Source: Escherichia coli
Lineage (GTDB): Bacteria; Pseudomonadota; Gammaproteobacteria; Enterobacterales; Enterobacteriaceae
Strand: one strand, 5' to 3'
NCBI RefSeq assembly: GCF_024298765.1
Contig: NZ_CP101210.1
DNA: 64,000 bases
The number at the start of each line of letters is the position of its first letter. The stretch's first letter is position 1. The notes beneath the pieces are model-generated. The model had not been told where the DNA came from. It made no database searches and was given only the letters and a program-made list of their open reading frames with translations. Of this stretch, positions 7,719 through 55,165 are shown piece after piece. The position numbers and the translations under genes were made by a program.

Positions 7719-8687
<969 letters not shown>

Positions 8688-10900: not shown

Positions 10901-10973
10901 GAGTCGCTACCTGAAGGAGTTGGGCGGGCAGGTATGTAATTTTACTCGTCGTACTTAATTATGCCAACAAATT

Positions 10974-10994
10974 ATACTGGATAAAAAAACAGTT
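10974..10994. promoter_or_regulatory. LexA box in uvrB promoter
   Basis: atACTGgataaaaaaaCAGtt, CTG-N10-CAG SOS-box geometry ~75 bp upstream of uvrB start. Confidence 0.8.
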
Positions 10995-11478
10995 CCTCAC
11001 CATAATATTTCTGTTACAGCGTAAACTCCGCTGTCAATCATGAGCAAAATTTACTCTGTGACGAGATAAAACTCCGGCCTTACCGGGTTATCCCCAAAGC
11101 AACGGCTTTTTTAACATTTGTCAAGATGAGTGATGACAGTTTTATGGCAAGAGATGCCTCTTCAGTGACTGCCATTGCAATTATCTAACCAGTTAAAAAA
11201 TAAAAGATATTTCTTTGAGCCGTCTTTAACGCCAATTCGCGTGCAAGCCGCGTATTCTCTCGCTTGCCTCGTGTTTTCTAACTCTAATACACATGGTTAT
11301 CCACAGGAATAGTGGATAACTGTCTGCAGCCCCTATCCCCCGCCGCCTGGGCAATTCCCACATACATCGCATGATGCGGAAGTAAAATTTTTTTCGTGAT
11401 TATTTTAGAATTTAATTGGTTAAATTGCAGTCAATCGAAGACGCGATCTCGCTCGCAATTTAACCAAATACAGGATGG

Positions 11479-12156
11479 CTACAACAAGGCAAGGTTTATG
11501 TACTTTCCGGTTGCCGCATTTTCTGGATTTTCTGCAAGCCAGGGGATCTCTCCCAGCAGCGGCGCGGGAATCATGCGGGTGAGCGTGGTCATATATTCAG
11601 CGTGACGTTTTCCCGGAGGCGTGACATCATTCGCCACCCAACCCGCCAGAGTCAGCCCGGCGTGTTGTATTGCCTGTGCCGTCAACATCGCGTGATTAAT
11701 ACAGCCGAGTTTCACACCAACTACCAGTATCACCGGCAGTTGTTCCTGTGTTACCCAATCCGCAAAAGTGAAAGTGTCAGAAAGCGGCGTAAACCAGCCG
11801 CCAGCACCTTCCACTAACACCCAGTCAGCCTGTTGTTCAAGCGCGCGTAATCCGGCGCTCATTACCAATGATTCTATCGGCCTGCCCTCTTGTGCGCTGA
11901 TGATGTGCGGCGAAGTGGGTTCTGCGAAGGTGTAAGGATTTACCGTTGCGTAATCCAGCTGCAGGCTGCTGTTGTGCTGTAACGCCAGCGCGTCACTATT
12001 ACGTAAGCCTTCCGGGGTCTTTTCGCTGCCAGAGGCGACCGGTTTATAACCTGCCGTCCGATAACCTGCTGCCTTCGCGGCTTGTAAAAGTGCACAACTG
12101 GCGACAGTTTTCCCCACTTCGGTATCCGTTCCGGTGACAAAATAACGTTTACTCAC
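11479..12156 (-). CDS. bioD: dethiobiotin synthetase
   Basis: 225 aa from GTG ([17 protein letters not shown]-loop); overlaps bioC end. Confidence 0.93.
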
Positions 12157-12904
12157 GAGCAATTACTCCCAAAAAAAGATGATACGTCAGAGGATATCGC
12201 CCCTGTTGCTGCGGCCAGGACAGTTGCAATCGCTGCAACTGCGAACGCGTTAATATTCGTGGGTAGCGCCCTTCATGAAGATGCGTGGCACCGATGCCTT
12301 TCAGCGAACGCATAGCACTGAGCGCATCATCAAACCACAGCGTGATGGGCTGAATATGATGTTGATAATGCACGCCGTTCAGCGACAGTTCGATTTCATC
12401 TGGCGGTAAAAAGCGATTAGCATGCGGGCGCTCGTCCACCGCCTGCCACGCCTGATGTAATTCAGGGAGCGATCCCTGCACCAGCGTGGTAAACGCGACC
12501 ACGCCTCCGGGGCGCACCACCCGATACAGCTCGCGAAGTGCCGTGGATAAATTACCGCACCACTGCACCGCGAGATTGCTCCATGCAAGATCGAAGGTTG
12601 CAGTCGCTAACGGCAGGGATTCGATATCTCCCGCCAGATAATGGTCTGCGGCATCCTTCTGGCGTGCCTGAACAAGCATTGGCGGCGAGAGATCTAACGC
12701 CGTCACCTGCGCGTGACGTTTCCGCCAGTGGCGGCTCATCCAGCCAGGTCCACAACCCGCGTCCAGTACGTGGGTGTATTTACGCTGTGGAAGCATTGCC
12801 AGTAAGACGTCAGCACTCTGGCGCTGTAACTCTGCGTGTTGCTCATAGTGCGCGGCTGCCCGTCCAAATGCCGCAGCAATGGCTTGTTTATTAACCGTTG
12901 CCAT
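12149..12904 (-). CDS. bioC: malonyl-ACP O-methyltransferase
   Basis: 251 aa from [17 protein letters not shown]...; SAM-MTase motif VLDAGCGPG. Confidence 0.93.
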
Positions 12905-37088: not shown

Positions 37089-37877
37089 TTACGCCAGTTG
37101 TACGGACACGAACTCATCAGGGTCAGCCAGCAGCATCAGCGGTGCTGACTGAATCATGGTGAACTCACGCGCCGGATCGCCGGTGGTCACCCAGTTTTTC
37201 GGGTAACGGGCAGAGGCGTTAATGCCTTCGCGCTGTGCGTCCGCATCCTGAATGCAGCCATAGGTGCGCAGACCGCGTGCATGAGTGTTACCCAGCACCA
37301 TCGTGTTGTCCGGCAGGAAGTTCTTTTTGACGCCGTTTTCCACGTACTGTCCGGAATACACGACGATGGCCACATCGCCATACATCCCCTTATAGGACAC
37401 CGCTTTACCCAGGTCTTTCACCGCTGTCTCCAGCTCGGAATGAGAGCCGCGACGGGTATCCAGCTTCTCCTTGACGGCGTTGAAGGAACGGAACAGCGCC
37501 CAGCCTTTCGGATCAAACACGATGATATTCACCACGCCGCTGGCGTTCAGCGCGTAGGCTTCGATATCGTCGGTCGGGTCATACGTGGACTTGTCACGCT
37601 TGCTCCACTCCGTGCCGCCGGACTGCGTGATGTTGTTCGCCGCACTGCGGCCCATATCCACCTCAACCGGATCGAAGGCTTCACCGGTCATGGTGTATTT
37701 GCCCTTGAGCACGGCAGAAACTGCCTGCATCTCTTCGACCTGAGCAATGGCCAGCTCTTCGTCACGCATGTTCTGCAGGATGATGCGACGGCGGCGGTAA
37801 GCCGGGTCCGCCAGATTCTGCGGATCTTCATCCGGCAGGCGACGCAGGGTCATCTGCGGATTCACTTCATGCTTGGG
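37089..37877 (-). pseudogene. E: major capsid protein E, C-terminal portion (gene split by island insertion)
   Basis: Encodes ...PKHEVNPQMTLRRLPDEDPQ... to the E C-terminus; upstream in-frame sequence is island DNA with an immediate stop. Confidence 0.9.
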
Positions 37878-37879
37878 TT
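37870..37879. repeat. island left junction direct repeat (att core) tgcttgggtt
   Basis: Identical 10-mer recurs at 48754-48763 at the other E junction. Confidence 0.8.
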
Positions 37880-38013
37880 ACATGAGTCAAATATGAAAGG
37901 ATGTGAATGATTTGATTACGTTTTAGCTATAGAATTGAAATGGAAAATCCTTGAATGCAATACAACGTGCAATACATGGATGAAAACCATCACTCATTTA
38001 ACAAGAGGAATCT

Positions 38014-38919
38014 ATGCGCTCACCCAACAGAATGCATGAACGCTCAACATTTTATAAGTATATGTCGTTGAATACCGCGAAGATTGTTCTTGATTCATGC
38101 AGCCTTAGATGGAGTTCTCCGGTCCTATTTAATGACCCTTTTGATGTTCCAAGAGAAGTTATGCCTGGTATTAACGAAATTAATATTGGCAAAGCTTTAG
38201 CCCGCAAGTTAATAGCGGAGTTGATTACCCCCAGAGAAGACATACAAAATTTAAACCCTAGAATTAGAACAATGCTAAGTGATTTCCAAAAGTCATTTCC
38301 TTTAGGCATACCCGCAGGATTAATTGAAAGATTTCAAGAAATGGTAAACATTCCACCAGTTGGGATTGGCGCTCCTGCGGCAATACAAGAAATGAAAGAT
38401 ATCTGGCGAGGAATGCTTAATAACAGAAGGATTTTGTGTTTATCTGAGAGCCCTATAATCACTCCTATGTGGAATCACTATGCCGATAAATATAAAGGTA
38501 TAGTTATCGAATTTGATTGTGTAGACTTTCTGGATAGCGCTTGGTTAATAGCCAAACCTATGAAATACACAGATGAAATGCCTCTAACTCACACTGCTGA
38601 AGGGATGGCCGAGTTGCTTTTCATGCCAGACAATAAGTCAATTGAATATATCAATAATGAGATAATATTCATAAAAACAGAAGAATGGGCATATGAAAGA
38701 GAGTGGAGAATTTCAACCTACGCTAGGCCAAATAGCACTGGTCAATATAGCGACTTAAAATTTCACCCTTTTGAGTTAAAATCTGTAATACTTGGTCCTC
38801 TTTTTGATGCCAGCGAGTTCGATGAAGTCGCATCACTAGTTAAAATGTATCCAAGAGCGAAATTATTTAAAAGTTCATTTGGGAACGACAGAAAAATATC
38901 CATAGTACCACTACCTTAA
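38014..38919 (+). CDS. hypothetical protein, DUF2971-like (low-GC cargo gene)
   Basis: 301-aa ORF with GAGGA RBS; motifs FYKY...LRWSSPVLFNDPFD, MWNHYADKYKGIVIEFD, EREWRI recalled as DUF2971-like; family assignment from memory only. Confidence 0.6.
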   Translation: MRSPNRMHERSTFYKYMSLNTAKIVLDSCSLRWSSPVLFNDPFDVPREVMPGINEINIGKALARKLIAELITPREDIQNLNPRIRTMLSDFQKSFPLGIPAGLIERFQEMVNIPPVGIGAPAAIQEMKDIWRGMLNNRRILCLSESPIITPMWNHYADKYKGIVIEFDCVDFLDSAWLIAKPMKYTDEMPLTHTAEGMAELLFMPDNKSIEYINNEIIFIKTEEWAYEREWRISTYARPNSTGQYSDLKFHPFELKSVILGPLFDASEFDEVASLVKMYPRAKLFKSSFGNDRKISIVPLP

Positions 38920-38949
38920 AAGGTCAAATGCTTTTGACAAATAAAATCT

Positions 38950-38976
38950 ATCGCCAGTTTTACTGGCGACTTTTAA
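38950..38976 (+). terminator. hairpin terminator between convergent DUF2971-like gene and Nu1-like gene
   Basis: cgccagttttactggcg stem-loop followed by cTTTTaa. Confidence 0.35.
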
Positions 38977-39025
38977 GCAACAAAGAACCACCTAAGCACT
39001 CTTCCTACCTATGGTTTCATTTGTT

Positions 39026-39577
39026 TTAACTTCGCTGATTATCCTTGATATACCTTTCAGCCATATCTGGAATGTTATCTGAGATCTGGTAAGCTCGAAT
39101 AAATGCTTTACTGACCTCCATCTTAATGAAGTCCTGATACCGTTTTTCCATGCCAGGAAACTGTCGACAGATCGCAAGTGGAAGACTATCAATGATTGCT
39201 CCAACTTCCCCAGTTAATTTCGACAAGGCATAAGTCGCAAATGCAGTGTCAATTACCTCACCTGTTTCGCTGGCATTCTTCAGTTCCTGTGCGTCGGCCT
39301 GCGCACGCGTAAGTCGATGGCGTTCGTACTCAATAGTCCCTGGCTGGAGATCTGTCTCGCTGGCCTGCCGCAGTTCTTCAACTTCCCGGCGCAGCTTTTC
39401 GTTCTCAATTTCAGCATCCCTTTCGGCATACCATTTTATGACGGCGGCAGAGTCATAAAGCACCTCATTACCCTTGCCACCGCCTCGCAGAACGGGCATT
39501 CCCTGTTCCTGCCAGTTCTGAATGGTACGGATACTCGCACCGAAAATGTCAGCCAGCTGCTTTTTGTTGACTTCCAT
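39026..39577 (-). CDS. terminase small subunit homolog (Nu1-like chimera)
   Basis: 183 aa; residues 1-~103 essentially identical to the prophage Nu1 at 54397-54942 (winged-HTH cosB-binding domain), C-terminal ~80 aa diverged. Confidence 0.88.
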   Translation of the reverse strand: MEVNKKQLADIFGASIRTIQNWQEQGMPVLRGGGKGNEVLYDSAAVIKWYAERDAEIENEKLRREVEELRQASETDLQPGTIEYERHRLTRAQADAQELKNASETGEVIDTAFATYALSKLTGEVGAIIDSLPLAICRQFPGMEKRYQDFIKMEVSKAFIRAYQISDNIPDMAERYIKDNQRS

Positions 39578-39739
39578 TGTTCATTCCACGGACAAAAACA
39601 GAGAAAGGAAACGACAGAGGCCAAAAAGCTCGCTTTCAGCACCTGTCGTTTCCTTTCTTTTCAGGGGGTATTTTAAATAAAAACATTAAGTTACGACGAA
39701 GAAGAACGGAAACGCCTTAAACCGGAAAATTTTCATAAA

Positions 39740-39800
39740 TAGCGAAAATCCGCGCGCCTGACGCCCCGTAGCCTGTCAGATCGCCGGAAAGGACCCGCCA
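39740..39800. other. cos-like site of the island (variant cosN)
   Basis: Aligns to prophage cos at 55100-55165; the 12-mer equivalent to the cohesive end (39755-39766, cgcctgacgccc) differs at 5/12 positions from aggtcgccgccc. Confidence 0.7.
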
Positions 39801-39822
39801 GCCAGAGCGGGCCCTAATTTCA

Positions 39823-40206
39823 TCAACCAATCAGCTTATAGCGACCATCCCGTGCATTGCGGCGTACACGCTCAATCTTGAGGCATAGCGCCGCATCTGG
39901 CTTTTTTGGGACAGGTACGCGGCAATATTCAGAAGCGCGAGGAATATTATTTATCCAGTCGATCACTTCACTTAAATACCAGGCCTTACGCCCTTCCGTA
40001 ACCTGCACACGCTCCGGGAACTCTCCACTAGCCTCAAGGTTTAGCAGTGTACGCCGACTCAGGGTTGTAATTTCCATCACCTGATTCATATCAACAAGGC
40101 GCTCGCTTAAACACATTTTGTCAGCGATAGCTTTTAATTCCTCTACAGCTGGATTCGGGTACATCATTTCGGCAATTGGCTTAAGGTCATTGTAATCATT
40201 CTGCAT
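39823..40206 (-). CDS. AlpA/MerR-like HTH protein
   Basis: 127-aa ORF; central motif ITTLSRRTLLNLEASGEFPERVQVTEGRKAWYLSEVIDWIN resembles AlpA-family HTH. Confidence 0.6.
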   Translation of the reverse strand: MQNDYNDLKPIAEMMYPNPAVEELKAIADKMCLSERLVDMNQVMEITTLSRRTLLNLEASGEFPERVQVTEGRKAWYLSEVIDWINNIPRASEYCRVPVPKKPDAALCLKIERVRRNARDGRYKLIG

Positions 40207-40217
40207 TGTATCCCCCT

Positions 40218-40559
40218 TTACACACGAGCCAGCGGCTGAACAGAAATACCTGAGCCAACAAACGCTGCAATCTTTACTGACAGTTCTTTTACAGACTCAG
40301 GCCAGTTCAGAGCATCAACATTTAAGACACCTGTCTTATAGACCTGAGCCTGTGTTTTTTTCGCGGTGTCGATTTGTACAGCGGAAACATAAACCGCTTT
40401 ACCTACGCTCGAACCATCCCATACCACCAGTGCACCTGTTGCATCTTCCTGCATCAGTGGCGTAAATGCAGGAATTACCCCTTTATTAGCTGAAAATATC
40501 CCCAGCGTAGTCACCAGTGCTTCAGTGCCAGCCATGAGTTCAGTGTAATGAGTAGCCAT
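40218..40559 (-). CDS. head decoration protein, gpD-like (divergent)
   Basis: 113 aa; shared pattern with lambda D (TPLM...WDG...YK.G...WPE...AF.G..IS) at ~30% identity. Confidence 0.7.
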   Translation of the reverse strand: MATHYTELMAGTEALVTTLGIFSANKGVIPAFTPLMQEDATGALVVWDGSSVGKAVYVSAVQIDTAKKTQAQVYKTGVLNVDALNWPESVKELSVKIAAFVGSGISVQPLARV

Positions 40560-40568
40560 TGCTCCCCC

Positions 40569-41615
40569 TTAGCCAATGCGAACGGTAACAAAACGATTGA
40601 TGCGGGCCGGTATTGGCTGTGGTGCTGAATGTGTCTGCACATATTCAATAGCCGGATCACCAGGCACAATATAGTTTTTCGGTGCAAGTTCGGCTTTAGT
40701 CAGCCCCATTCGGATTAGCTCCGGATCCTGAATACCGCCATAGGCGACAATCCCCTGAAGAGCCGTATTGCCAAGCACCATCAAATCAGGATCAAGGAAA
40801 TGTTTTTCAGTTCCGTCCTCGTCGGTATAACGCCCGCTGTATACAACAATCGCAACATCGCCCATATACCCTTTAAAACTCACCGAATCACCAAGGTCTT
40901 TAAGGGCCGTTTCCAGTTCGGAATTAGAGCCACGACGGGTATCCAGAGCCTCTTTTATCGCTCTGAATGAACGGTATTTCTTCCATACATTACCGCCCAT
41001 AATGATGATATTAGTGACGCCCTCACTAAATTCTGCGTAGCTCTCAATATCATCATTTGGATCAAAAGTTTCTTTATCCTTACCTGACCACTCAGCACCG
41101 CCAGACTGAGTGATGATATTTTGTGGTTTAATATTCCAGTCCAGCTCATAACGTTCAATACCATCGCCCTCAATGATATTTTTCCCCGTTGTGATTGCCT
41201 GAACGGCAAGCCATTCAATACGTGCACGAATAGATTTAGCCTGATTTACAATCGCCTGTTTAACTTTAATATTACGCGCTCCAAAAGCATTGTATTGCTC
41301 AGGTGATACACCAGCAGGGCGCACAGCTAACTTATTTGGATCAATGCTGCTTTTCGGCTTCATATAGCCTGGACGAATTGTTTTTGATTCGTACCCTTCG
41401 TCACGTGAAACTTTACTACCCACCATAGGAGAACAAAACGCTGCAATTGGGATATTTGGATCGTCGATTGTATCAAGAATAATATCGCGCGATTCAAACA
41501 TTACCGAGCGAGTAAAAAACAAACTGGTAAACAACGCATTTAGTTGTTTTTGTACATCTACAGCATTAACCACCTGTACAAGCTGGGTAGGCGAATATAA
41601 ATCAACCATACGCAT
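40569..41615 (-). CDS. major capsid protein, gpE-like (divergent)
   Basis: 348 aa from MRMVDLYSPTQL (RBS AAAGAGG); ~50% identity to prophage E over ITQSGG...DTRRGS.SELETA...GDVAIVVYSG...MVLGNT. Confidence 0.85.
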   Translation of the reverse strand: MRMVDLYSPTQLVQVVNAVDVQKQLNALFTSLFFTRSVMFESRDIILDTIDDPNIPIAAFCSPMVGSKVSRDEGYESKTIRPGYMKPKSSIDPNKLAVRPAGVSPEQYNAFGARNIKVKQAIVNQAKSIRARIEWLAVQAITTGKNIIEGDGIERYELDWNIKPQNIITQSGGAEWSGKDKETFDPNDDIESYAEFSEGVTNIIIMGGNVWKKYRSFRAIKEALDTRRGSNSELETALKDLGDSVSFKGYMGDVAIVVYSGRYTDEDGTEKHFLDPDLMVLGNTALQGIVAYGGIQDPELIRMGLTKAELAPKNYIVPGDPAIEYVQTHSAPQPIPARINRFVTVRIG

Positions 41616-41826
41616 CCTCTTTGCATTCATTAAAAATAATTGTGGATATATGCTATCACCGATATTTGTCATGCGAATACATGCAACCGAGTGCAATGTT
41701 GTATAAAGTTTTGGGATAACAACTTCAGCGCGGATAATTAGTGTTAATATCTTAACTCCCTTTGGTCGGGATTTATGTAGCATGCCGGAAAATTTATTTT
41801 TTTCCGGCCTTTTTTATTGGCAATAT

Positions 41827-42276
41827 TTAAAACGGAATATCATCTCCCCATTGCTCATTATCTCCCACTGGTGGATGGCTTCCTTGCTGATCTGCCTGTT
41901 GTTTTGCTCTGTTCAGTGCGTCAGTAGCCTGACCCTGTTGACCTTTTTTGCCGCCCGGTCGCACCGTTCGCGCACTGATTACGCTGTCTGCGATAACCTG
42001 CCAGCCCTGCCGCGTTTCACCGTTCTGTCCAGTCCACTGGCTCACCTGCATATTACCCGCCACGCTCAGGAGTTCGCCTTTGTGATGCTTTGCCAGCGCG
42101 TCGGCTTGTCTGCCAAACGCCAGGACAGATAACCACATCGTCGCCGTTCCGTCATCTGCCTGGCTGCATGGCAAAGATACCGCCATCCGTGCCAGTGTCA
42201 TGGGTGTTCCCTTGCTGGTATGTTTTACCTGTGGGTCGTCCACCAGCCGCCCGTAAGCTGCTATTTGCGCCGTCAT
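41827..42276 (-). CDS. ssb: single-stranded DNA-binding protein
   Basis: 149-aa ORF with OB-fold pattern, Gly/Gln-rich linker and acidic C-terminal tail ...GDDIPF. Confidence 0.8.
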   Translation of the reverse strand: MTAQIAAYGRLVDDPQVKHTSKGTPMTLARMAVSLPCSQADDGTATMWLSVLAFGRQADALAKHHKGELLSVAGNMQVSQWTGQNGETRQGWQVIADSVISARTVRPGGKKGQQGQATDALNRAKQQADQQGSHPPVGDNEQWGDDIPF

Positions 42277-42287
42277 GCTGCCTGCTC

Positions 42288-42530
42288 TCAGGACTTAATA
42301 TTGATGGTTGTCACTTCCTCCGCTTCGGCAATCTCCCGTTCGGTCAGCGTGGCAAAGTTTGCAGCCGCCGTTGTCATGAATGCGCTTATCAGTTCGGGAT
42401 GTGCTTTCGCGTATCCTTCCCCGGCGTTGCGGTCTATTGCCTTAATCGCCACCCTTAGCCAGTGTTCAGCCATATCAAGGGCGCGGTAATGTGGCTTTAT
42501 ATGTTTGTTCAGTTTTCCTGATGTGTGCAT
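42288..42530 (-). CDS. hypothetical protein
   Basis: 80-aa ORF in operon between origin and ssb. Confidence 0.5.
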   Translation of the reverse strand: MHTSGKLNKHIKPHYRALDMAEHWLRVAIKAIDRNAGEGYAKAHPELISAFMTTAAANFATLTEREIAEAEEVTTINIKS

Positions 42531-42559
42531 TTTTATTTTTACCCCCTCGTTTAAAAAGT

Positions 42560-42810
42560 TTTTTGTGCACCACCACCTTGTCTACCTTGTCTACCTGATT
42601 AGTTATCAGGCCAGTAATGGCGCGGGTTTCAGGGAGGTAGACAGCCCCAAATAGCTGTCTACCTCATCTCTACCCGTCTCCTTACCTGTCTACAAAAATG
42701 GGTAGATAAGGTAGATAACAGGTAGACAGTGAAAAATAGTTATCTACCTGCATTAATGCATTGAAATAAAAGTATTTTATTTCAGTCAGGTAGACAAGGT
42801 AGATAACCAT
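42560..42810. repeat. iteron cluster, putative island origin of replication
   Basis: >12 copies of GGTAGAYA / TRTCTACC in both orientations immediately downstream of the primase gene. Confidence 0.8.
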
Positions 42811-42819
42811 TGCCATTTT

Positions 42820-44571
42820 TTATAAAAACGCATCGCAATCATCAGTAGTCGTTGCGTTGGTCTGCGTGACTCCCTTAACTTTTCGCGTAATATATTCATA
42901 TCCGTAAACTTTCGCCGCTGACCTCATAGCCTTTCCGAACTCATTCACGCTCAAACATTTCCCCTTTCCTGTATATGCCATGAAGGCCATATAGACACGG
43001 TAAAGGCTGTTTCTGGTCGTGTACTTCACGGTGTCACCACCACCGCCCATCATTAGCCCACGAGCTTCCTCCAGAAACTCCAGCGCCGCGCAAAGCTCAA
43101 CAACCGGATCCGTTTGCTGCTTTATTGCCAGAGCTTCATCACCGTCACGCTGTTCCAGTAATAAAGCCCGTGCCTTTTCAGGGTCAGCAAAATTAGCCAG
43201 CAAGCGGCGGATAATTACGGGGATTTCTGCCGCTATCTTTTCCGGTAATTCCTTGTCTTTTTCGTCCTCCCTTACAATGTTGTCGAACCGGAAAATCACC
43301 CGACGGCGTGACACACCTCCGGCCCGTTCGGTAAAGATCATCGGGTCGTTATTGGTTGCCAGTACCACCGCCCTTATTATCGTCGTGAATCGCTTCTCAT
43401 ATTTCGGGTTAATTTCAACGGGATCGCCTCCCGTGATTTTCTTGATGCCCGTGCCTTCCCCCGTATATTTCGGCTGATCGGCAAGGACGATAAGACGACT
43501 CCCGACAACCTGCGCACGCCCTCCTGCATCATCGAGTGATGTCATCTCTGCGCTTACGGTGTTCTGTTTGCCAGCAAGCAGGGTGGCAATATGGGTAAAT
43601 GTACTCTTACCGCTTCCCCCGTCTCCGGTGGCCTCAATGAACATCTGCCAGTCGTACCGGTTCGCCATAATCATGTACAGCGCGGCACATATACGCATCA
43701 TCTTGCGCGGGTCTTTTCCGGCTGCGTGCTCAAGCCATTTATGAAAGTTTGGCGCGTTATCGCGGATGTTCTCCCCTGGTGCTGGTGGCGTGTACTCAAT
43801 GCCGTTGTGCGTGGTGATCCAGTTCTCCGGCGTGTGCGGGGAAAATTCCCCCGTTTTCAGGTCAAGCGCACCATTGGCGAACGGCAGCAAATCGCCGGAC
43901 GGCTCGCCCATTGGTTCGGCAATAACTTTTAACGCTTCAACGGCGTTATTGATCACGCGTTTGCTGAAAGTGGCCCTGTGCTCTGAATAGATCGCCACCA
44001 TTTCGCGGCTCAGCTCCATTGTGCTGATCGGACACCATACCCCGCCGCGCCATACGTGAACGATTTCACTTTCCGGATGCACACAAACGCCATCAAAGCG
44101 CTCGGCAAGCAGCTGCGCGCGCTCACTGTCTGCCATCTGTGAAAGTTGCGCCTTTTGCTTCGTCGGAAGATTAAGCACCAGGCTTTCCCCACGCTCGCAT
44201 TCCTCTTTGAGTCGCGGCAACTGGTCGGATAAATCCACTGGGCTGATGTCAGTAATCCCCGCGTATTCGTGTACGGTCTTCACTCCAGCCACAGCCAGTA
44301 ACGTAACAATCTGCGTCATGCTGTGCTCTGTGATATGTCCTGCGCGGTAAACACGCACACACTGACGATCTTCATCAATGATCCGGTAATCGGTGATGTT
44401 TTTCAGTTGCTCATCAGCCAACACGACAGGCGGCACATCGTCGGCGGCAATATGTTTACCCGCCCATTCCTGCCACTCTTTCGCATGGCTCCACGCATCA
44501 CTACCTGCAAAGATGATTATCTCTGTCAGTCTGTCGCGTGGCTGTTTTTTTAAGTTCGGTGCCAGTTTCAT
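42820..44571 (-). CDS. primase/helicase-like replication protein (P-loop NTPase, D5/P4-alpha-like)
   Basis: 583-aa ORF with Walker A GDGGSGKST and primase C-terminal-like region. Confidence 0.8.
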   Translation of the reverse strand: MKLAPNLKKQPRDRLTEIIIFAGSDAWSHAKEWQEWAGKHIAADDVPPVVLADEQLKNITDYRIIDEDRQCVRVYRAGHITEHSMTQIVTLLAVAGVKTVHEYAGITDISPVDLSDQLPRLKEECERGESLVLNLPTKQKAQLSQMADSERAQLLAERFDGVCVHPESEIVHVWRGGVWCPISTMELSREMVAIYSEHRATFSKRVINNAVEALKVIAEPMGEPSGDLLPFANGALDLKTGEFSPHTPENWITTHNGIEYTPPAPGENIRDNAPNFHKWLEHAAGKDPRKMMRICAALYMIMANRYDWQMFIEATGDGGSGKSTFTHIATLLAGKQNTVSAEMTSLDDAGGRAQVVGSRLIVLADQPKYTGEGTGIKKITGGDPVEINPKYEKRFTTIIRAVVLATNNDPMIFTERAGGVSRRRVIFRFDNIVREDEKDKELPEKIAAEIPVIIRRLLANFADPEKARALLLEQRDGDEALAIKQQTDPVVELCAALEFLEEARGLMMGGGGDTVKYTTRNSLYRVYMAFMAYTGKGKCLSVNEFGKAMRSAAKVYGYEYITRKVKGVTQTNATTTDDCDAFL

Positions 44572-44867
44572 TTTTTGCCCCTGAATGCGTTAATCATGCT
44601 TTTCATTTTCTGGATGTTTCCCCGCGCTTTTTCCCTGCTGATGGGCTTACTGCGGGGTGCGGCATATACCAGGGAAAAATCACGCCGGAACTGATAAACA
44701 GGCATCACGCAGTCATAGCTATACCCCTCACGACGGTAAGTGATGCGCCGTTCTGCCACGCCTTTAATCGTTACCGTGCCGCCGTATTTATCGCGGTAAA
44801 TATCGCCGTTCATAAATTCAGGCCGAGCGGGGCCGCTGGCAATAAAGCCAGAATTTTTCATTTCCAT
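44568..44867 (-). CDS. hypothetical protein
   Basis: 99-aa ORF overlapping primase start by 4 nt. Confidence 0.55.
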   Translation of the reverse strand: MEMKNSGFIASGPARPEFMNGDIYRDKYGGTVTIKGVAERRITYRREGYSYDCVMPVYQFRRDFSLVYAAPRSKPISREKARGNIQKMKSMINAFRGKK

Positions 44868-44884
44868 ATTATTTATTCCTCGAC

Positions 44885-45106
44885 TTAACTCGACTTATTT
44901 GATAGCTGGGCACTATTTATTGCGTCATTGAGTTTTTCTGCTGCTTCATCAATAAGTGACAACAGGCCATAAGCAATATTTGCATCTTCATTGTCATTTA
45001 TGCAATCAAGCCACATATTTAATATTGCTTTTGCTGAATTATTTAAAGTTAATGAACTTTCTGCACATGCTAACAATTTAAAAAAGACTTCCCGTTCTGT
45101 ATTCAT
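44885..45106 (-). CDS. hypothetical protein
   Basis: 73-aa low-GC ORF in the island leftward operon. Confidence 0.5.
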   Translation of the reverse strand: MNTEREVFFKLLACAESSLTLNNSAKAILNMWLDCINDNEDANIAYGLLSLIDEAAEKLNDAINSAQLSNKSS

Positions 45107-45298
45107 TTAATCCCCCACCAGCTTACTTTCTTCCTCAATCAAAAAACTAGCGACACTTCCCGAAAGACGCGCCAGTAGGCTCGCCAGTGCGGATATATCA
45201 GCATCTGTAATTTTGTTCGGGTATACCTCAAGAAGGCGGCAAATAATTTCTGTCTGGTGCGCACGTTCAGCGGCTTCGTGTAATGTGATTTCCTGCAT
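45107..45298 (-). CDS. hypothetical protein
   Basis: 63-aa ORF, start/stop abutting neighbours. Confidence 0.5.
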   Translation of the reverse strand: MQEITLHEAAERAHQTEIICRLLEVYPNKITDADISALASLLARLSGSVASFLIEEESKLVGD

Positions 45299-45483
45299 TA
45301 ATGCACCTCTTTTAATTCATACACTGCTGAAATAATGACTTGTGATAAGCCATATTCTGATGATTCGCTTCTCACCGCAGCAATAGCCGTCTGAACATTA
45401 ACAGCCTTCACATTCTGAGCGATACCAATTGTGTGGCCTATTGGGTTAACAGCTCGGGCAAATACACGGAAGGTTTTAAGCAT
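45298..45483 (-). CDS. hypothetical protein
   Basis: 61-aa ORF in operon. Confidence 0.5.
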   Translation of the reverse strand: MLKTFRVFARAVNPIGHTIGIAQNVKAVNVQTAIAAVRSESSEYGLSQVIISAVYELKEVH

Positions 45484-45673
45484 GACTCACTCCCTGGCGG
45501 ATTTTTGCAGCGAATACAGCAACACAACCGGACGGGCAACGGCTACGCGCTTCGCGTTCCGTCCAGGCGGTTACGTGGATGATTTGAGATTCTCCGGCAC
45601 TCAGTGCCAGAAAACGCCACACAAAGGCCGTTTGTGTGTGTACAAGGTGTGGTATATGATTTACAGCAACCAT
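45476..45673 (-). CDS. hypothetical small protein (first gene of leftward operon)
   Basis: 65 codons from internal ATG preceded by AGGAG at -7; rest of the 243-aa ORF-track call rejected. Confidence 0.35.
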   Translation of the reverse strand: MVAVNHIPHLVHTQTAFVWRFLALSAGESQIIHVTAWTEREARSRCPSGCVAVFAAKIRQGVSHA

Positions 45674-45764
45674 AACGGCTCCTAGTTTACGTTGTTGGTT
45701 AGACGCCCCGTATGTGTTCCCAGCACTGCGGGGCGTTGCTCTTTGTATTTCAACAATCCTTTCG

Positions 45765-45797
45765 GTGTGTTTCATGTTATGAGCGCATGAAACACAC
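45765..45797. promoter_or_regulatory. operator-like inverted repeat in divergent promoter region
   Basis: tgtgtttcatg-N9-catgaaacaca perfect 11-bp arms; third half-site tgaaacacac at 45832-45841. Confidence 0.6.
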
Positions 45798-45863
45798 GTC
45801 AAGGCTTTTTGTATTTCTTTTTTTGTGTATACTGAAACACACCGATGATTAGGAGTTTCAGAA

Positions 45864-46169
45864 ATGGCAACGGCTAACAAAAACGCAAAATCACAACTGA
45901 CAACTGTCAGAGTCCCACTAGATGTTATGCAAGGGATGGAATCCGTTAAGCTGGACGGTGAAAGCAATGCCGGATTTATCGTAACCGCCATGCGCGGTGA
46001 AATCGCCCGCCGCCAGGCAGAAGGAAGCGGAGAAAATCCCCTCGTGTCTTCACTGGATGCCTTAGCTAAGGTCGAACAAATCGGCATCAAGGCAGCGGAG
46101 GAAATCGGGCAACTCGTAGCCGTCGCTCGTGAAGAACTCCAGCGGCGTAAAGCCAAAGAATCTGAATAA
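45864..46169 (+). CDS. small DNA-binding protein, ribbon-helix-helix-like, putative island regulator
   Basis: 101-aa ORF with AGGAG RBS, divergent from the replication/packaging operon; N-terminus LTTVRVPLDVMQGMESV resembles RHH. Confidence 0.55.
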   Translation: MATANKNAKSQLTTVRVPLDVMQGMESVKLDGESNAGFIVTAMRGEIARRQAEGSGENPLVSSLDALAKVEQIGIKAAEEIGQLVAVAREELQRRKAKESE

Positions 46170-46519
46170 TTAGTATCAGCGCCGTGATGTGAGTAACTAC
46201 GGCGCATTGCTATGTAAATACTGGCAATAAACAGAAAAGGTAGTTCTACTCCGAATAATTTTATCTGACACTACTCCTGAACTAACATGCGCTTATCTTA
46301 CAGGATATAAATATAAATCCATAAAATCACGATTAAATAAAGTCGCTCCAAACATAAACCACACCCAACGCTTAACAAGATAGCAACAAACAGGTAAATA
46401 ACTTGCAGAAATATTTATCGCAAGGATTATCATTATTAATGACAAATCACTTTACCAAGTCATTCCCCTCTCTTATCATAAAGAGAAAGTAATAAATAAG
46501 TTAAGGGAGTTAGAATGCT

Positions 46520-47056
46520 ATGAATCTAAAAAAAATAGCCACAAACACAAAAAACAAGATAACAGAAACATTTAATAAACTTATATTAGAGGCATCTAAA
46601 ACCCCCACACAAGATGAAATTAAAATACTTGAGAGAAGGAGTAAGAAGTTTAATTACTCCTTTTTCTCATACGCAGTCACAGGAGCTATAATAGTTTTTT
46701 GCTCTCAACCATTAATTAAATACGCAAACCCAATACTTATTTTATTGAGTGGTCTGTTACTGTCTATCATCATTATCATTCTCAGAATGATTTATATTTC
46801 ACAAGCGAATGCATCATGGACAACCAAAAAACGCTCACATGTACTAGTTCATTTTCTTTCTGCATGTTTCATAGCATCAACATTGACGTTGCTATATCAG
46901 GCTTACGATAATAACATCACACACAAATTGTACTGTAAAAATATACAACAACTTATTGAAAAAAGGATAAAAACAGAAAAAAACATCAGCATATTCAGTG
47001 GGATGCAATGCACCCCGGTATATGATTACTCTTTATTTGGATTTAATCTCTTATAA
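46520..47056 (+). CDS. hypothetical membrane protein (very low GC cargo)
   Basis: 178-aa ORF with ~3 predicted TM helices; RBS GGGAG; AT-rich. Confidence 0.6.
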   Translation: MNLKKIATNTKNKITETFNKLILEASKTPTQDEIKILERRSKKFNYSFFSYAVTGAIIVFCSQPLIKYANPILILLSGLLLSIIIIILRMIYISQANASWTTKKRSHVLVHFLSACFIASTLTLLYQAYDNNITHKLYCKNIQQLIEKRIKTEKNISIFSGMQCTPVYDYSLFGFNLL

Positions 47057-47125
47057 AGAATGTTATTACTGATTTGAGTACAAATTCTCAAATCAGTAAT
47101 TCATAATATTTTATTCTGAGATAAT

Positions 47126-47362
47126 TTAAACTACCCACTCACCTCGAATCCATGCCTGCACTTCTGAAAGACGATATGCAACAGCAGTGGAACCAATCTT
47201 GATCCGCTTAGGAAATTTTCCTTCCTTCTCCAGCTTCCAGCGTGTGCTGTTCGCAAGAGTGGTTAGCTCCCGACATTCTTTCTCACGGATCATTCGGTCA
47301 ATGTTAGGAATGTACTCCAGACCCTTTTTATCAACAATTGCCATTTTTTTCATGTTAACCAA
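47126..47362 (-). CDS. alpA: AlpA-family transcriptional regulator/excisionase
   Basis: 78-aa ORF; motif ELTTLANSTRWKLEKEGKFPKRIKIGSTAVAYRLSEVQAWI; immediately downstream of int. Confidence 0.8.
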   Translation of the reverse strand: MVNMKKMAIVDKKGLEYIPNIDRMIREKECRELTTLANSTRWKLEKEGKFPKRIKIGSTAVAYRLSEVQAWIRGEWVV

Positions 47363-48590
47363 CCTTTTGTTTGAGGATTGTCACTTTTGAATCAGCACCT
47401 GCGATGCTATTGAGATATGTAGTCCAGAGTTCCAGAGCATCCAGTTTTTTAGCCATAAACTTACTCCGGTTGTAAACACCTGCCACGCCAGGTAGCGCAT
47501 GGCCTAACAGTTGTTCTACTACATAAAATTCAACACCGAGATCACTTAGATGAGTAGATAGCGTTCTTCTAAGGTCGTGTAGTGACCATTGTTTTTCATG
47601 GCCCAAACGTTTACCGATTTTCCCCCCAATCTTGCTTACGCTTTCTCTAATTCGCAGACTTCCCAGCACATAACCAGTATGTTTTGTCTCTTCGTGAACA
47701 TCCGTTACCCACTGTCGTAGAATTTCAGGTACTGGTCTGACGATTTCAACACCAGTTTTTGAGTGATCTTTTGGTACAGTCCAAACCCAACTTTCGAGAT
47801 CCCATTCGCTCCATTCTGATAATCGGGCTTCACTCATTCGACATCCAAATACTGTACAAAGCACAAACATTTTTCGCGTGTATTCAGACATTAGTTTTAA
47901 ATCAGGCTCGACAAAAATTGCCTTCCAGAGCTGGCCGAGTTCGGCTTCATCCAGAACCCGATCCCGCTTACCTGCAATCTGCCCCACATCACTCATGCGC
48001 AAATCCTTTAAAGCATCACACGTCGCGTACTGGCGTACCCGACAAAAACGAAGAGCTAATTTAGTGTCAGAAAAAACATACGCCGCCATAACTGGTGCAT
48101 TACGTTTAATTCGGTCAAAACAGTCCAGCCATTCATATAGGTGAGTGTCATTTACGGGCAAATGACCGATATAGGGAAAGATATGCTTTCGAAATCTGCC
48201 AAGCGTTACAGCATGAGTTTTACGACGCACCTTACAGTAATTTTCATACCAGTAATTTAGTGCATCCTCCACTGTAACTGGCTTTAAGCGTTCTTCAGCC
48301 TGAATCTTAATCTGGATACGCGGATCACGTTTGTCAGCCAACCAACCACGGCACTCGTCGCGCTTTTCCCTTGCCTGTTTGAGTGACATATCAGGATATT
48401 TACCCAACGTTAGCCAGACCGGAGCAGCCCGGCCACCTGCTAACCTGTAGAAGAAAACAAAGCTCACAGCCCCTTTAGTACTCACACGAATAGAAAGCCC
48501 CTTTCCATCAGCAATGGTGATCTGCTTTTCTCTGGGTTTCCCCAGATATCCTTTAAGCGCTTTGTCGCTCAGTTTGTTCTCGCCAGCCAT
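47355..48590 (-). CDS. int: tyrosine site-specific integrase (P4-type)
   Basis: 411 aa from MAGENKLSDKALKGY; catalytic R...HDLRRT...LLGH...Y motifs; adjacent to right island junction. Confidence 0.9.
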   Translation of the reverse strand: MAGENKLSDKALKGYLGKPREKQITIADGKGLSIRVSTKGAVSFVFFYRLAGGRAAPVWLTLGKYPDMSLKQAREKRDECRGWLADKRDPRIQIKIQAEERLKPVTVEDALNYWYENYCKVRRKTHAVTLGRFRKHIFPYIGHLPVNDTHLYEWLDCFDRIKRNAPVMAAYVFSDTKLALRFCRVRQYATCDALKDLRMSDVGQIAGKRDRVLDEAELGQLWKAIFVEPDLKLMSEYTRKMFVLCTVFGCRMSEARLSEWSEWDLESWVWTVPKDHSKTGVEIVRPVPEILRQWVTDVHEETKHTGYVLGSLRIRESVSKIGGKIGKRLGHEKQWSLHDLRRTLSTHLSDLGVEFYVVEQLLGHALPGVAGVYNRSKFMAKKLDALELWTTYLNSIAGADSKVTILKQKVG

Positions 48591-48752
48591 TTTTAGCCCC
48601 AAAAAGCAATACAAGCTGCAATACAGAGATGATTGCAACACACAGATAACGAGGAAAATTCAGTGAAAGCACCAGATAAACTTATTCTTTATTATCAAAA
48701 GATTAAGTGTAAAAACCAGCAACTACACGAAAGCCTCAGAAAGCCATGCTAA

Positions 48753-48998
48753 GTGCTTGGGTTTGACATATCCCGGCGTAAATTCAGAGGTGGAGCCGCC
48801 ACGGGAACGGATAACCTCACCGGAAACAATCGGCGAAACGTACAGCGCCATGTTTACCAGTCCCGGAATTTGTGAGAGATAGACTTTCTCCGTAGTGAAG
48901 GGATAGCTCTCACGGAAAAAGAGACGCAGAAACAGCGGATCAAACTTAAATTTCTGCTCATTTGCCGCCAGCAGCTGGGCGGTTGTGTACATCGACAT
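48753..48998 (-). pseudogene. E: major capsid protein E, N-terminal portion (82 codons) truncated by island
   Basis: MSMYTTAQLLAANEQKFKFDPLFLRL...GYVKPKH then island-derived LAWLSEAFV and stop. Confidence 0.9.
48754..48763. repeat. island right junction direct repeat (att core) tgcttgggtt
   Basis: Identical to 37870-37879. Confidence 0.8.
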
Positions 48999-49053: not shown

Positions 49054-49386
49054 TTAAACGATGCTGATTGCCGTTCCGGCAAACGCGGTCCGTTTTTTCG
49101 TCTCGTCGCTGGCAGCCTCCGGCCAGAGCACATCCTCATAACGGAACGTGCCGGACTTGTAGAACGTCAGCGTGGTGCTGGTCTGGTCAGCATCAACCGC
49201 CAGAATGCCAACGGCAGCACCGTCGGTGGTGCCATCCCACGCAACCAGCTTACGGGTGGAGGTATCCAGCATCAGCGGGGTCATTGCAGGCGCTTTCGCA
49301 CTCAATCCGCCGGGCGCGGTTGCCGTATGTGCCGGGTCACTGTTGCCCAGCGGCTGGTAATGGGTAAAGGTTTCTTTGCTCGTCAT
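49054..49386 (-). CDS. D: head decoration protein D
   Basis: 110 aa from [12 protein letters not shown], matches lambda gpD. Confidence 0.95.
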
Positions 49387-54422: not shown

Positions 54423-54942
54423 TCAGCAACCCCGGTATCAGTTCATCCAGCGCGGCTGCTTTGTTCATAGCTTTGATGATATCCCGTTTCAGGAAATCAA
54501 CATGTCGGTTTTCCAGTTCCGGAAAACGCCGCTGCACCGACAGGGGGATCCCGTCGAGAATACTGGCAATTTCACCTGCGATCCGCGACAGCACGAAAGT
54601 ACAGAATGCGGTTTCCACCACTTCAGCTGAGTCTCTGGCATTCTTCAGTTCCTGTGCGTCGGCCTGCGCACGCGTAAGTCGATGGCGTTCGTACTCAATA
54701 GTCCCTGGCTGCAGATCTGTCTCGCTGGCCTGCCGCAGTTCTTCAACTTCCCGGCGCAGCTTTTCGTTCTCAATTTCAGCATCCCTTTCGGCATACCATT
54801 TTATAACGGCGGCAGAGTCATAAAGCACCTCATTACCCTTGCCACCGCCTCGCAGAACGGGCATTCCCTGTTCCTGCCAGTTCTGAATGGTACGGATACT
54901 CGCACCGAAAATGTCAGCCAGCTGCTTTTTGTTGACTTCCAT
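54397..54942 (-). CDS. Nu1: terminase small subunit Nu1
   Basis: 181-aa ORF matching lambda Nu1 end to end. Confidence 0.95.
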
Positions 54943-55099
54943 TGTTCATTCCACGGCCAAAAACAGAGAAAGGAAACGACAAAGGCCCAAAAGTTCGTTT
55001 TCAGCACCTGTCGTTTCCTTTCTTTTCAGGGGTTATTTTAAATAAAAACATTAAGTTACGACGAAGAAGAACGGAAACACCTTAAACCGGAAAATTTTC

Positions 55100-55165
55100 A
55101 TAAATAGCAAAAACCCGCGAGGTCGCCGCCCCGTAACCTGTCGGATCGCCGGAAAGGACCCGTAA
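55100..55165. other. prophage cos site (cosN cohesive-end 12-mer at 55120-55131)
   Basis: aggtcgccgccc = reverse complement of lambda cohesive end GGGCGGCGACCT; flanking sequence matches lambda left/right ends. Confidence 0.9.

What the first reader, a model, noticed from the sequence alone, without database searches (positions are those of the whole stretch)
40218..41615. The island encodes its own divergent major capsid (gpE-like) and decoration (gpD-like) proteins but no portal, protease or large terminase
The 348-aa product of 40569-41615 aligns with the interrupted helper E at roughly half identity (ITQSGG...DTRRGS.SELETA...GDVAIVVYSG...MVLGNT). The 113-aa product of 40218-40559 shares the gpD pattern at ~30% identity. 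Carrying only the shell and decoration proteins while the helper supplies B, C/Nu3, A and tails suggests a capsid-replacing satellite. Together with the insertion in helper E, it implies the particles made on induction could be built mainly from island-encoded capsid protein, possibly with a different shell size suited to an 11-kb genome.
Basis: partly seen in the sequence, partly recalled or inferred. Interest (0 to 1): 0.85.

Follow-up and report, generated by a model that had tools for sequence, protein, structure and literature searches.

The report
Known embedded satellite's capsid gene pair
The two genes are real capsid-shell and decoration genes carried by an 11-kb phage satellite that sits inside its helper prophage's own capsid gene, but this element (11capE, a helper-embedded PICI) and its capsid genes are already published, and tests on a relative argue against the proposed capsid replacement.

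Summary
Window 40569-41609/41615 (-) encodes a full-length lambda gpE-type HK97-fold capsid protein, 41.5% identical to the restored helper E. Window 40218-40559 (-) encodes a gpD/SHP-type decoration protein, 37.7% identical to helper D. Both lie in a 10,884-bp satellite (37880-48763) inserted at a 10-bp core in the helper E gene. The island has no portal, protease or large terminase, but it does have its own cos site and a Nu1-like small terminase.

It is already known. E', D' and the following regulator differ by 1, 0 and 0 residues from Eco567.11capE of E. coli NRG857c, the founding helper-embedded PICI (Tommasini et al. 2022/2023). Capsid and decoration genes in lambda-dependent PICIs were reported in 2018 (EcCICFT073 c1499/c1500; PDB 3BQW).

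The "capsid-replacing, different shell size" reading is not supported:
- The same module occurs in PICIs that do not interrupt E.
- Deleting the EcCICFT073 homologs changed neither transfer nor interference, and packaged DNA was phage-sized.
- Four island copies (43.5 kb) fit a full lambda head.

What this work adds: the pair belongs to an old satellite-specific lineage under strong purifying selection (dN/dS 0.06-0.13). Its function is still unknown.

The parts
40569..41609 (-).
   Evidence: Pfam Phage_cap_E 2e-41. 41.5% identical to the restored helper E, E = 4e-84. PDB 3BQW 7e-121 and lambda gpE 6e-76. AF2/Foldseek TM 0.95 and 0.91. One residue differs from NRG857c 11capE. dN/dS 0.06-0.09.
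40218..40559 (-). D' : satellite-encoded gpD/SHP-type head decoration protein (113 aa). A strong RBS (GGGGGAG) follows directly after the E' stop codon.
   Evidence: Pfam HDPD 5e-15. 37.7% identical to helper D, E = 7e-18. PDB SHP 1TD0 6e-16 and gpD 1e-11. Foldseek TM 0.77-0.85. Identical to NRG857c 11capE D'. dN/dS 0.06-0.13.
39823..40206 (-). AlpA-like helix-turn-helix protein (127 aa), the conserved third gene of the E'-D' module
   Evidence: PHROG 2790 1e-49. PDB AlpA 8C3T 2e-9. Phage_AlpA genes follow HDPD in L005 and L007. Identical to the NRG857c protein.
39578..39797 (-). Island cos site (cosQ-cosN-cosB). The 12-nt cohesive end at 39755-39766 reads GGGCGTCAGGCG, against the helper's GGGCGGCGACCT.
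   Evidence: A 558-bp segment (39240-39797) is 95% identical to the helper cos-Nu1 region at 54605-55162. The cosN variant is shown.
39026..39577 (-). Island small terminase (Nu1-like, 183 aa). Residues 1-102 are identical to helper Nu1; the C-terminal 80 residues are divergent.
   Evidence: PHROG 57 1e-65. PDB lambda TerS 1-98 5e-59. Alignment.
38014..38919 (+). Cargo gene: DUF2971 protein, a candidate anti-phage defence gene
   Evidence: RefSeq annotation of the near-identical locus. PADLOC PDC-S31 2e-32.
41827..42276 (-). Island single-stranded DNA-binding protein
   Evidence: PHROG 44 1.5e-37.
42575..42810 (.). Iteron-rich putative replication origin, directly 3' of the primase gene (GGTAGACA/GGTAGATAA repeats)
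   Evidence: the repeat finder families D1, D2, D4, D6, D7. The position matches the PICI ori organisation described in PMC6092414.
42820..44571 (-). Island primase/helicase (DUF5906/D5-type, 583 aa)
   Evidence: PHROG 864 6e-162. Only 47% identical to the NRG857c primase.
47126..47353 (-). AlpA-type excisionase/regulator next to int
   Evidence: PHROG 2790 5e-18. RefSeq annotation.
47355..48590 (-). Island tyrosine integrase (411 aa) of the clade that targets prophage late genes
   Evidence: PHROG 1 8e-64. Two residues differ from the NRG857c 11capE integrase.
48754..48763 (-). att core copy at the upstream junction (AACCCAAGCA), within helper E codons for K-P-K-H
   Evidence: Longest common block between the two junctions. 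It equals the 10-bp identity block reported for 11capE.
37870..37879 (-). att core copy at the downstream junction (AACCCAAGCA)
48754..48998 (-). Helper E, N-terminal fragment (codons 1-82)
   Evidence: Joined to 37089-37869 it gives an intact 341-aa ORF, 98% identical to lambda E.
37089..37869 (-). Helper E, C-terminal fragment
49054..49386 (-). Helper D (lambda-type decoration protein), intact

Best explanation
The two ORFs are the conserved capsid module of an enterobacterial lambda-dependent PICI. The element here is a variant of the published helper-embedded PICI Eco567.11capE, inserted at site E:Phage_cap_E:80 of a lambda-like prophage. The module is a gpE-type HK97-fold shell protein plus its cognate gpD/SHP-type cementing protein.

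Shown:
- homology, fold and element identity;
- an old satellite-specific lineage;
- strong purifying selection;
- occurrence of the module regardless of integration site;
- co-orientation with the helper late operon;
- presence of the island's own cos and TerS.

Inferred mechanism:
- On induction the pair is transcribed late, by Q-antiterminated read-through from the helper late operon and/or an island promoter.
- The proteins enter full-size lambda-type heads built on the helper's portal, scaffold/protease and connectors, either mixed with helper gpE/gpD or as a cognate E'-D' lattice.
- The island excises at the 10-bp core and restores helper E.
- Concatemeric island DNA, about four units or 43.5 kb, is packaged from the island cos by helper gpA with island or helper TerS.

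On this view the pair is an auxiliary, conditionally useful shell supply. It could buffer the satellite against helper E variation or against the delay before E is restored. It is not a size-determining or obligatory replacement shell.
For: Homology and fold.

Element identity:
- 10-bp core AACCCAAGCA and restoration of E.
- E', D', HTH and Int differ by 1, 0, 0 and 2 residues from NRG857c 11capE.
- The element is described in 10.1101/2022.07.18.500453 and PMC10111431.

Module independent of the E interruption:
- chromosomal clpS-cspD PICIs, 96% and 82% nucleotide identity;
- a fis-site PICI in Serratia;
- a portal-embedded PICI in Edwardsiella whose helper has intact E and D.

Satellite-specific lineage:
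- Island-type E proteins are 52-74% identical to one another but 39-47% identical to helper E proteins, while two helper E proteins from different genera are 59% identical.
- Two clusters appear among 111 sequences.
- No phage record holds a homolog at 60% identity or more; the best full-length match is lambda E at 41.7%.

Purifying selection: dN/dS 0.06-0.13.

Full-size heads: EcCICFT073 DNA is packaged at phage size, and deleting c1499 or c1500 left transfer and interference unchanged. Four island copies are 43,536 bp.

Packaging signals: island cos and TerS.
Against: - No particle, expression or knockout data exist for this element. The authors of the 11capE paper could not detect virions.
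- Lack of a phenotype for c1499/c1500 deletions in a 55%-identical relative means no positive function has ever been shown. It also need not transfer to an element whose helper E is interrupted.
- Strong purifying selection implies a function that matters more than 'auxiliary' suggests.
- Island size alone does not exclude one copy in a T=3-sized shell or two copies in a T=4-sized shell.
Confidence: 0.6

Rival explanations
1. Capsid-replacing satellite. With helper E interrupted, particles are built mainly from island E'/D' on the helper portal and scaffold, possibly with a smaller T number suited to an 11-kb genome.
For: - Helper E is interrupted while E'/D' are intact and co-oriented with the late operon.
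- The pair is under strong purifying selection.
- One island copy would roughly fill a T=3-sized lambda-type shell, by volume scaling (my own estimate).
- Other satellites use a capsid-protein homolog for size redirection: SaPIbov5 Ccm, cited in PMC6092414.
Against: - The same module is present where helper E is untouched.
- In EcCICFT073, packaged DNA was phage-sized and deleting either gene had no effect on transfer.
- The island excises precisely and restores E.
- E' has the same length and domain layout as gpE, with no extra domain.
- 4 x 10,884 bp fits a full head.
Confidence: 0.15
2. Backup copy (Tommasini et al.). E' was captured from the neighbouring helper late region and functionally replaces the interrupted E until the island excises.
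For: - Proposed in PMC10111431.
- E' lies in the same late transcription unit, so it could be made before excision.
Against: - E'/D' are not recent captures. They are 39-47% identical to helper E proteins and form a separate lineage shared with non-embedded PICIs.
- The identical module occurs in chromosomal PICIs.
- Whether E' works with the helper's Nu3, portal or D is untested.
Confidence: 0.15
3. Interference factor. E'/D' co-assemble with helper gpE/gpD as poison subunits that reduce helper phage yield.
For: - PICIs generally interfere with their helpers.
- This island lacks an Rpp homolog: the position after cos holds a full TerS instead. Another interference route is therefore plausible.
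- The divergent N-arm and E-loop half of E' (31% identity) could disturb a mixed lattice.
Against: Deleting c1499 or c1500 did not relieve interference with lambda in EcCICFT073, although Rpp may have masked an effect there. There is no direct evidence.
Confidence: 0.08
4. Non-functional remnant of a captured head-gene cluster.
For: No phenotype for the EcCICFT073 deletions. The neighbouring terS decays in some copies: an internal stop in L001 and a 64-aa stub in NRG857c.
Against: - Both ORFs are intact in all copies examined, with dN/dS 0.06-0.13 at dS up to 1.2.
- The pair is conserved across Escherichia, Salmonella, Serratia, Edwardsiella and Cedecea.
Confidence: 0.02

Closest known systems
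Eco567.11capE, the founding helper-embedded PICI (HE-PICI/HES) of E. coli NRG857c, site E:Phage_cap_E:80 (Tommasini, Mageeney & Williams, bioRxiv 2022 10.1101/2022.07.18.500453; NAR Genom Bioinform 2023, PMC10111431)
   Same: - Same insertion point and the same 10-bp core in a lambda-type E gene.
- Same orientation.
- Int differs by 2 of 411 residues, E' by 1 of 346, D' by 0 of 113, the HTH by 0 of 127.
- Same variant cosN.
- The paper already states that the island 'bears its own capsid gene'.
   Different: - The replication module is swapped: the primase is only 47% identical.
- Right-end cargo differs: DUF2971 here, HEPN + DUF262 in NRG857c.
- terS is full length here (183 aa) but a 64-aa stub in NRG857c, which the paper describes as lacking terS.
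- The segment shared with the helper cos region is 558 bp at 95% here, against 258 bp at 90% in the paper.
EcCICFT073 c1499 (capsid, PDB 3BQW) and c1500 (head decoration) of the model Gram-negative PICI (Fillol-Salom et al. 2018 ISME J, PMC6092414; 2019 Mol Cell, PMC6739421)
   Same: - Same gene order: E'-D'-small ORF-cos-TerS-derived gene.
- Same satellite-specific E/D lineage: 55% and 54% identity, closer than either is to lambda E/D.
- Lambda-type helper and cos packaging.
   Different: - EcCICFT073 is chromosomal, not embedded in its helper.
- It has Rpp (a TerS-DBD mimic) where this island has a full TerS.
- It has canonical cosN with a private cosB, whereas this island has helper-type cosB with a variant cosN.
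Capsid-forming PICIs (cf-PICI, EcCIEDL933; Alqurainy et al., 10.1101/2022.09.08.507074)
   Same: A satellite that encodes its own HK97-fold capsid protein and shares the int/alpA/primase backbone type.
   Different: cf-PICIs also encode portal, protease, head-tail connectors, HNH and large terminase, and they build small capsids. This island has none of these.
SaPIbov5 Ccm (capsid-protein homolog that redirects helper capsid size)
   Same: A satellite-encoded homolog of the helper major capsid protein, without a portal or protease of its own.
   Different: Ccm causes small capsids. For the PICI E' lineage, the only test (EcCICFT073) showed phage-sized packaging and no role in interference. There is no sequence relationship to Ccm.

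Membership tests
Lambda gpE-type major capsid protein (Pfam Phage_cap_E, HK97 fold) | Full-length match to the Phage_cap_E profile and to gpE | tested here: met
   Pfam 2e-41 over residues 12-343 of 346. BLASTP to the restored helper E 41.5% over 349 columns, E = 4e-84. PDB 7VI9 6e-76.
Lambda gpE-type major capsid protein (Pfam Phage_cap_E, HK97 fold) | HK97-like fold (N-arm, E-loop, spine helix, P and A domains) | tested here: met
   AF2 pLDDT 84, pTM 0.85. Foldseek TM 0.95 to 3BQW and 0.91-0.93 to the lambda gpE crystal structure 7SJ5.
Lambda gpE-type major capsid protein (Pfam Phage_cap_E, HK97 fold) | Assembles into an icosahedral shell | not testable with these tools
   Needs expression, EM or mass spectrometry.
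gpD/SHP head decoration protein (Pfam HDPD) | Profile match and gpD/SHP fold | tested here: met
   Pfam HDPD 5e-15. PDB SHP 6e-16 and gpD 1e-11. Foldseek TM 0.77/0.84 to 1TD0 and 0.79/0.83 to capsid-bound gpD 8XQB.
gpD/SHP head decoration protein (Pfam HDPD) | Trimer that binds threefold sites of the expanded shell | not testable with these tools
   No multimer prediction or experiment is available here.
Gram-negative PICI | int + AlpA at one end, primase with an iteron origin 3' of it, about 10-15 kb, no tail or lysis genes | tested here: met
   Int, AlpA and primase. Iterons at 42575-42810. Size 10,884 bp. No tail, lysis, portal or TerL matches.
Gram-negative PICI | Induction, replication and packaging depend on a helper phage | not testable with these tools
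   Excision after mitomycin C was measured for the near-identical NRG857c element. Packaging has not been shown.
Helper-embedded PICI, site E:Phage_cap_E:80 (11capE type) | [quoted passage not shown] | tested here: met
   The 10-bp core is duplicated at 37870-37879 and 48754-48763, and joining the flanks gives an intact 341-aa E. The main island genes (int, AlpA, primase, SSB, E', D', terS) are on the helper late-gene strand; three ORFs (38014-38919, 45864-46169, 46520-47056) run on the + strand.
Helper-embedded PICI, site E:Phage_cap_E:80 (11capE type) | Integrase of the clade that targets late genes | tested here: met
   409 of 411 residues are identical to the NRG857c 11capE integrase.
Capsid-forming PICI (cf-PICI) | Own portal, protease, head-tail connectors and large terminase/HNH | tested here: not met
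   None found among the island ORFs.
Capsid-size-redirecting satellite (Ccm/Sid/CpmB-like function) | Production of small capsids commensurate with the satellite genome | not testable with these tools
   Published data exist only for a relative: EcCICFT073 DNA was packaged at phage size.

The most novel reading that the evidence does not exclude
The satellite-specific E'/D' lineage is a working 'shell-only' capsid module. On the helper's portal, scaffold and protease it builds heads made largely of satellite subunits. In helper-embedded PICIs this would happen while helper E is still interrupted. Such elements would be a functional intermediate between classical PICIs, which steal whole heads, and cf-PICIs, which make whole heads. 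The lack of phenotype in EcCICFT073 would then reflect redundancy with an intact helper E.
Probability: 0.2. Interest if true: 0.6.

Novelty: already known. Interest (0 to 1): 0.25.

Why it matters
As it stands, the element, its insertion in E and its own capsid gene are published, and the nearest experimental test argues against capsid replacement or resizing.

One open question remains, and this element is well placed to address it. A capsid/decoration pair has been kept under strong purifying selection as a separate satellite lineage across several enterobacterial genera, yet deleting it has shown no phenotype. Here the helper's own E is switched off until the island excises, which makes a role for E' testable.

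Tried and rejected
1. Many E. coli hits spanned about 17.5 kb and covered terminase, portal and protease genes. I suspected islands that had captured the helper head cluster. Inspection of L008 showed an ordinary E-embedded island. The extra span came from BLAST joining the helper's own cos-Nu1 match to the island match.
2. I tested whether the 127-aa HTH after D' is an Rpp. It has no PDB match to RppC, only to AlpA. In EcCICFT073, Rpp is the gene after cos, the position held here by a full TerS.
3. I suspected the variant cosN was satellite-specific. This is rejected: 3 of 18 IMG/VR contigs carry it at a phage's own cos, next to helper-type Nu1/A/B.
4. The Rfam scan of the island (C4/isrK-type immunity RNAs are reported for some PICIs) gave no match at gathering scores.
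5. NCBIfam gave no match for any of the six island proteins scanned.
6. The promoter and terminator scan around E' found no more sites than in shuffled sequence. The only clear feature is a terminator-like hairpin after terS at 38950-38970.
Full report
**What is there.** The whole region lies on the - strand of a lambda-like prophage.
- An island of lower G+C content (about 36-54% per kb, mean about 46%, against 55-60% in the flanks) interrupts the helper's major capsid gene E.
- The two junctions share a 10-bp block, AACCCAAGCA, at 48754-48763 and 37870-37879. The island is therefore 10,884 bp.
- Joining the flanks at that block gives an intact 341-aa ORF, 98% identical to lambda E.
- Island genes, in gene order:
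  - integrase (47355-48590);
  - AlpA;
  - an Icd-like small gene, four small ORFs and two opposite-strand ORFs (45864-46169, 46520-47056);
  - DUF4222;
  - a D5/DUF5906 primase (42820-44571);
  - an iteron-rich origin (42575-42810);
  - an 80-aa ORF;
  - SSB;
  - E' (40569-41609);
  - D' (40218-40559);
  - an AlpA-like HTH (39823-40206);
  - a cos site;
  - a Nu1-like small terminase (39026-39577);
  - a DUF2971 gene on the opposite strand.
- The helper's Nu1, A, B, C, D, H, J and other tail genes are full length.

**Check of the observation.**
- E' matches the restored helper E over its full length: 41.5% identity, E = 4e-84. Identity is 31% in the N-terminal half and 53% in the C-terminal half.
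- E' matches Pfam Phage_cap_E (2e-41), PHROG 29, lambda gpE structures (6e-76) and PDB 3BQW (7e-121).
- An AlphaFold2 model (pLDDT 84) superposes on 3BQW at TM 0.95 and on the lambda gpE crystal structure at TM 0.91.
- D' is 37.7% identical to helper D (E = 7e-18). It matches Pfam HDPD (5e-15). Its model superposes on phage 21 SHP and lambda gpD at TM 0.72-0.85.
- No island ORF is a portal, protease or large terminase.
The ribosome-binding site favours ATG 41609 over 41615.

**It is a published element.** A literature search led to Tommasini, Mageeney & Williams (bioRxiv 2022; NAR Genom Bioinform 2023).
- It has a 10-bp identity block and lies at site E:Phage_cap_E:80 of a lambda-like prophage at icd.
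- They named the class helper-embedded satellites, or HE-PICIs.
- I fetched that locus. Against the window, E' differs by 1 of 346 residues and Int by 2 of 411. D' and the HTH are identical, and the cosN variant is the same.
- The primase module (47% identity), the right-end cargo and the state of terS differ. The window therefore holds a mosaic variant of 11capE.
- Capsid and decoration genes in lambda-dependent PICIs were reported earlier for EcCICFT073 (c1499, c1500) (Fillol-Salom et al. 2018).
- 3BQW, released in 2008, is the crystal structure of that CFT073 protein.
- E' and D' are 55% and 54% identical to c1499 and c1500.

**Does the pair go with the interruption of E? No.**
- The same SSB-E'-D'-HTH-cos-terS block lies in chromosomal PICIs between clpS and cspD, at 96% and 82% nucleotide identity over E'D'.
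- Homologous E-D-AlpA blocks occur in a fis-site PICI of Serratia.
- They also occur in an Edwardsiella PICI embedded in a portal gene, whose helper keeps intact E and D.
- A Salmonella island lying among P2-like tail genes has one too.
- In E. coli, 394 of 5,426 complete genomes carry the pair at 80% coverage or more. About 50 of them carry this particular E-embedded island at that coverage.

**Lineage and selection.**
- Island-type E proteins are 52-74% identical to each other and 39-47% identical to helper E proteins. Two helper E proteins from E. coli and Edwardsiella are 59% identical.
- Among 111 full-length homologs, average-linkage clustering gives two groups: one with E' and c1499, one with lambda E. 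One sequence, P0045, is borderline.
- No record in the phage collection holds a homolog at 60% identity or more. The best full-length hits are lambda-type E at 41.7%.
- D' shows the same split, with a satellite-type C-terminus ...SVQPL against phage-type ...SIV.
- The pair is thus an old satellite lineage rather than a recent capture from the neighbouring helper genes. This qualifies the 'capture/backup' suggestion made in the 11capE paper.
- Nei-Gojobori dN/dS between copies is 0.06-0.09 for E' and 0.06-0.13 for D', at dS up to 1.2. Both proteins are therefore maintained by selection.

**How it most likely works.**
- Published tests on EcCICFT073 found that deleting c1499 or c1500 changed neither interference with lambda nor transfer. 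All packaged DNA was phage-sized, and PICIs of this family are thought to be packaged as multimers in large heads.
- For NRG857c, the composite prophage excises and replicates after mitomycin C. The island then excises precisely, 42-98% by 2-3 h. Virions were not detected.
- Four island copies are 43,536 bp, 90% of the lambda genome. That is within lambda's accepted packaging range (established knowledge).
- My best reading is that E'/D' are a cognate shell-plus-cement pair. They would be expressed with the late genes and enter full-size heads built on helper portal and scaffold. Packaging would run from the island cos by helper gpA with island or helper TerS.
- On this reading the pair is auxiliary, not a replacement or size-determining shell.
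- The identity of the genes and the element is near certain. The functional part is inference, and the report scores the whole explanation at 0.6.
- Rivals are scored in the report: shell replacement or small capsids, a backup for the interrupted E, a poison subunit, and a remnant.

**Packaging signals (beyond the finding).**
- A 558-bp island segment (39240-39797) is 95% identical to the helper cos-Nu1 region.
- Island TerS residues 1-102 are identical to helper Nu1, and the C-terminal 80 residues are diverged.
- Inside this near-identical stretch, the 12-nt cohesive end differs at 5 positions: GGGCGTCAGGCG against GGGCGGCGACCT.
- That variant is not satellite-specific. Of 18 IMG/VR contigs carrying it, 15 have it next to the E'-D'-HTH module, and 3 have it at a phage's own cos next to helper-type Nu1, A and B.
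- EcCICFT073 has Rpp at the position of this TerS.

**Verdict.** The element and its capsid genes are already known. Interest is low. The residual question is what a conserved, selected, satellite-specific E/D pair does.

Noticed in passing
window 39026-39577 (-) and 39240-39797: The island small terminase is a chimera. Residues 1-102, together with the upstream cos region (558 bp, 95% identical), match the helper's Nu1/cos. The C-terminal 80 residues are divergent, and in lambda Nu1 that part binds gpA. The published 11capE is described as lacking terS (a 64-aa stub in NRG857c). A 99.4%-identical island in strain 200177 has an internal stop in this gene.
   Followed up: partly
window 39755-39766 (-), compared with helper cosN 55120-55131 (-): The island's cohesive-end sequence is GGGCGTCAGGCG, against the canonical GGGCGGCGACCT of the helper: 5 of 12 positions differ within an otherwise near-identical cos. 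The same variant is in NRG857c 11capE and in 18 IMG/VR contigs. In three of those contigs (L010, L014, L026) it is a lambdoid phage's own cos. Whether this helper's terminase cuts both alleles is unknown.
   Followed up: partly
window 38014-38919 (+): The low-GC cargo gene at the island's right end (DUF2971) matches the PADLOC candidate defence family PDC-S31 (2e-32). The same slot holds HEPN + DUF262 genes in NRG857c and a 311-aa hypothetical protein in strain MN06021. It therefore looks like a variable defence-cargo slot.
   Followed up: partly
window 42820-44571 (-) versus L028 4230-6050: The island is mosaic. Int, E', D' and the HTH are at least 99% identical to NRG857c 11capE, but the primase is only 47% identical, which indicates a swapped replication module. 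Nucleotide similarity stops at about island positions 2887 and 6281.
   Followed up: partly
L007 (Salmonella enterica AAEGCM010000006.1) 4292-13978: An island with int, DUF4222, an AAA_25 replication protein, Phage_cap_E, HDPD and AlpA lies between the tail-fibre and tail-tube genes of a P2-like prophage. This may be a helper-embedded PICI in a non-lambdoid late region, carrying a lambda-type capsid pair that could not co-assemble with a P2-type capsid protein.
   Followed up: no
L006 (Edwardsiella tarda MBLV01000009.1) 1786-11394: A PICI is embedded in the portal gene of a lambda-like prophage. It carries its own E/D pair while the helper's E and D (14191-15626) are intact. This is a clean case separating carriage of E/D from interruption of E.
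   Followed up: partly
window 42575-42810: A dense set of direct and inverted GGTAGACA/GGTAGATAA iterons lies immediately downstream of the primase gene. This is the expected PICI replication origin.
   Followed up: partly
proteins P0005 and P0147: One database protein of 463 aa carries both Phage_cap_E and HDPD domains, an apparent E'-D' fusion. One of 194 aa carries a small-terminase domain plus HDPD. These could be read-through, frameshift or assembly artefacts and were not examined.
   Followed up: no
window 40569-41615 codons 82-91 versus helper E att site: The integrase targets the DNA encoding PGYxKPK, the motif most conserved across both E lineages. At the equivalent position E' has AGCCGAAAAG against the core AACCCAAGCA (5 of 10 differ), so the island cannot insert into its own capsid gene. 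The 11capE paper also noted this.
   Followed up: yes
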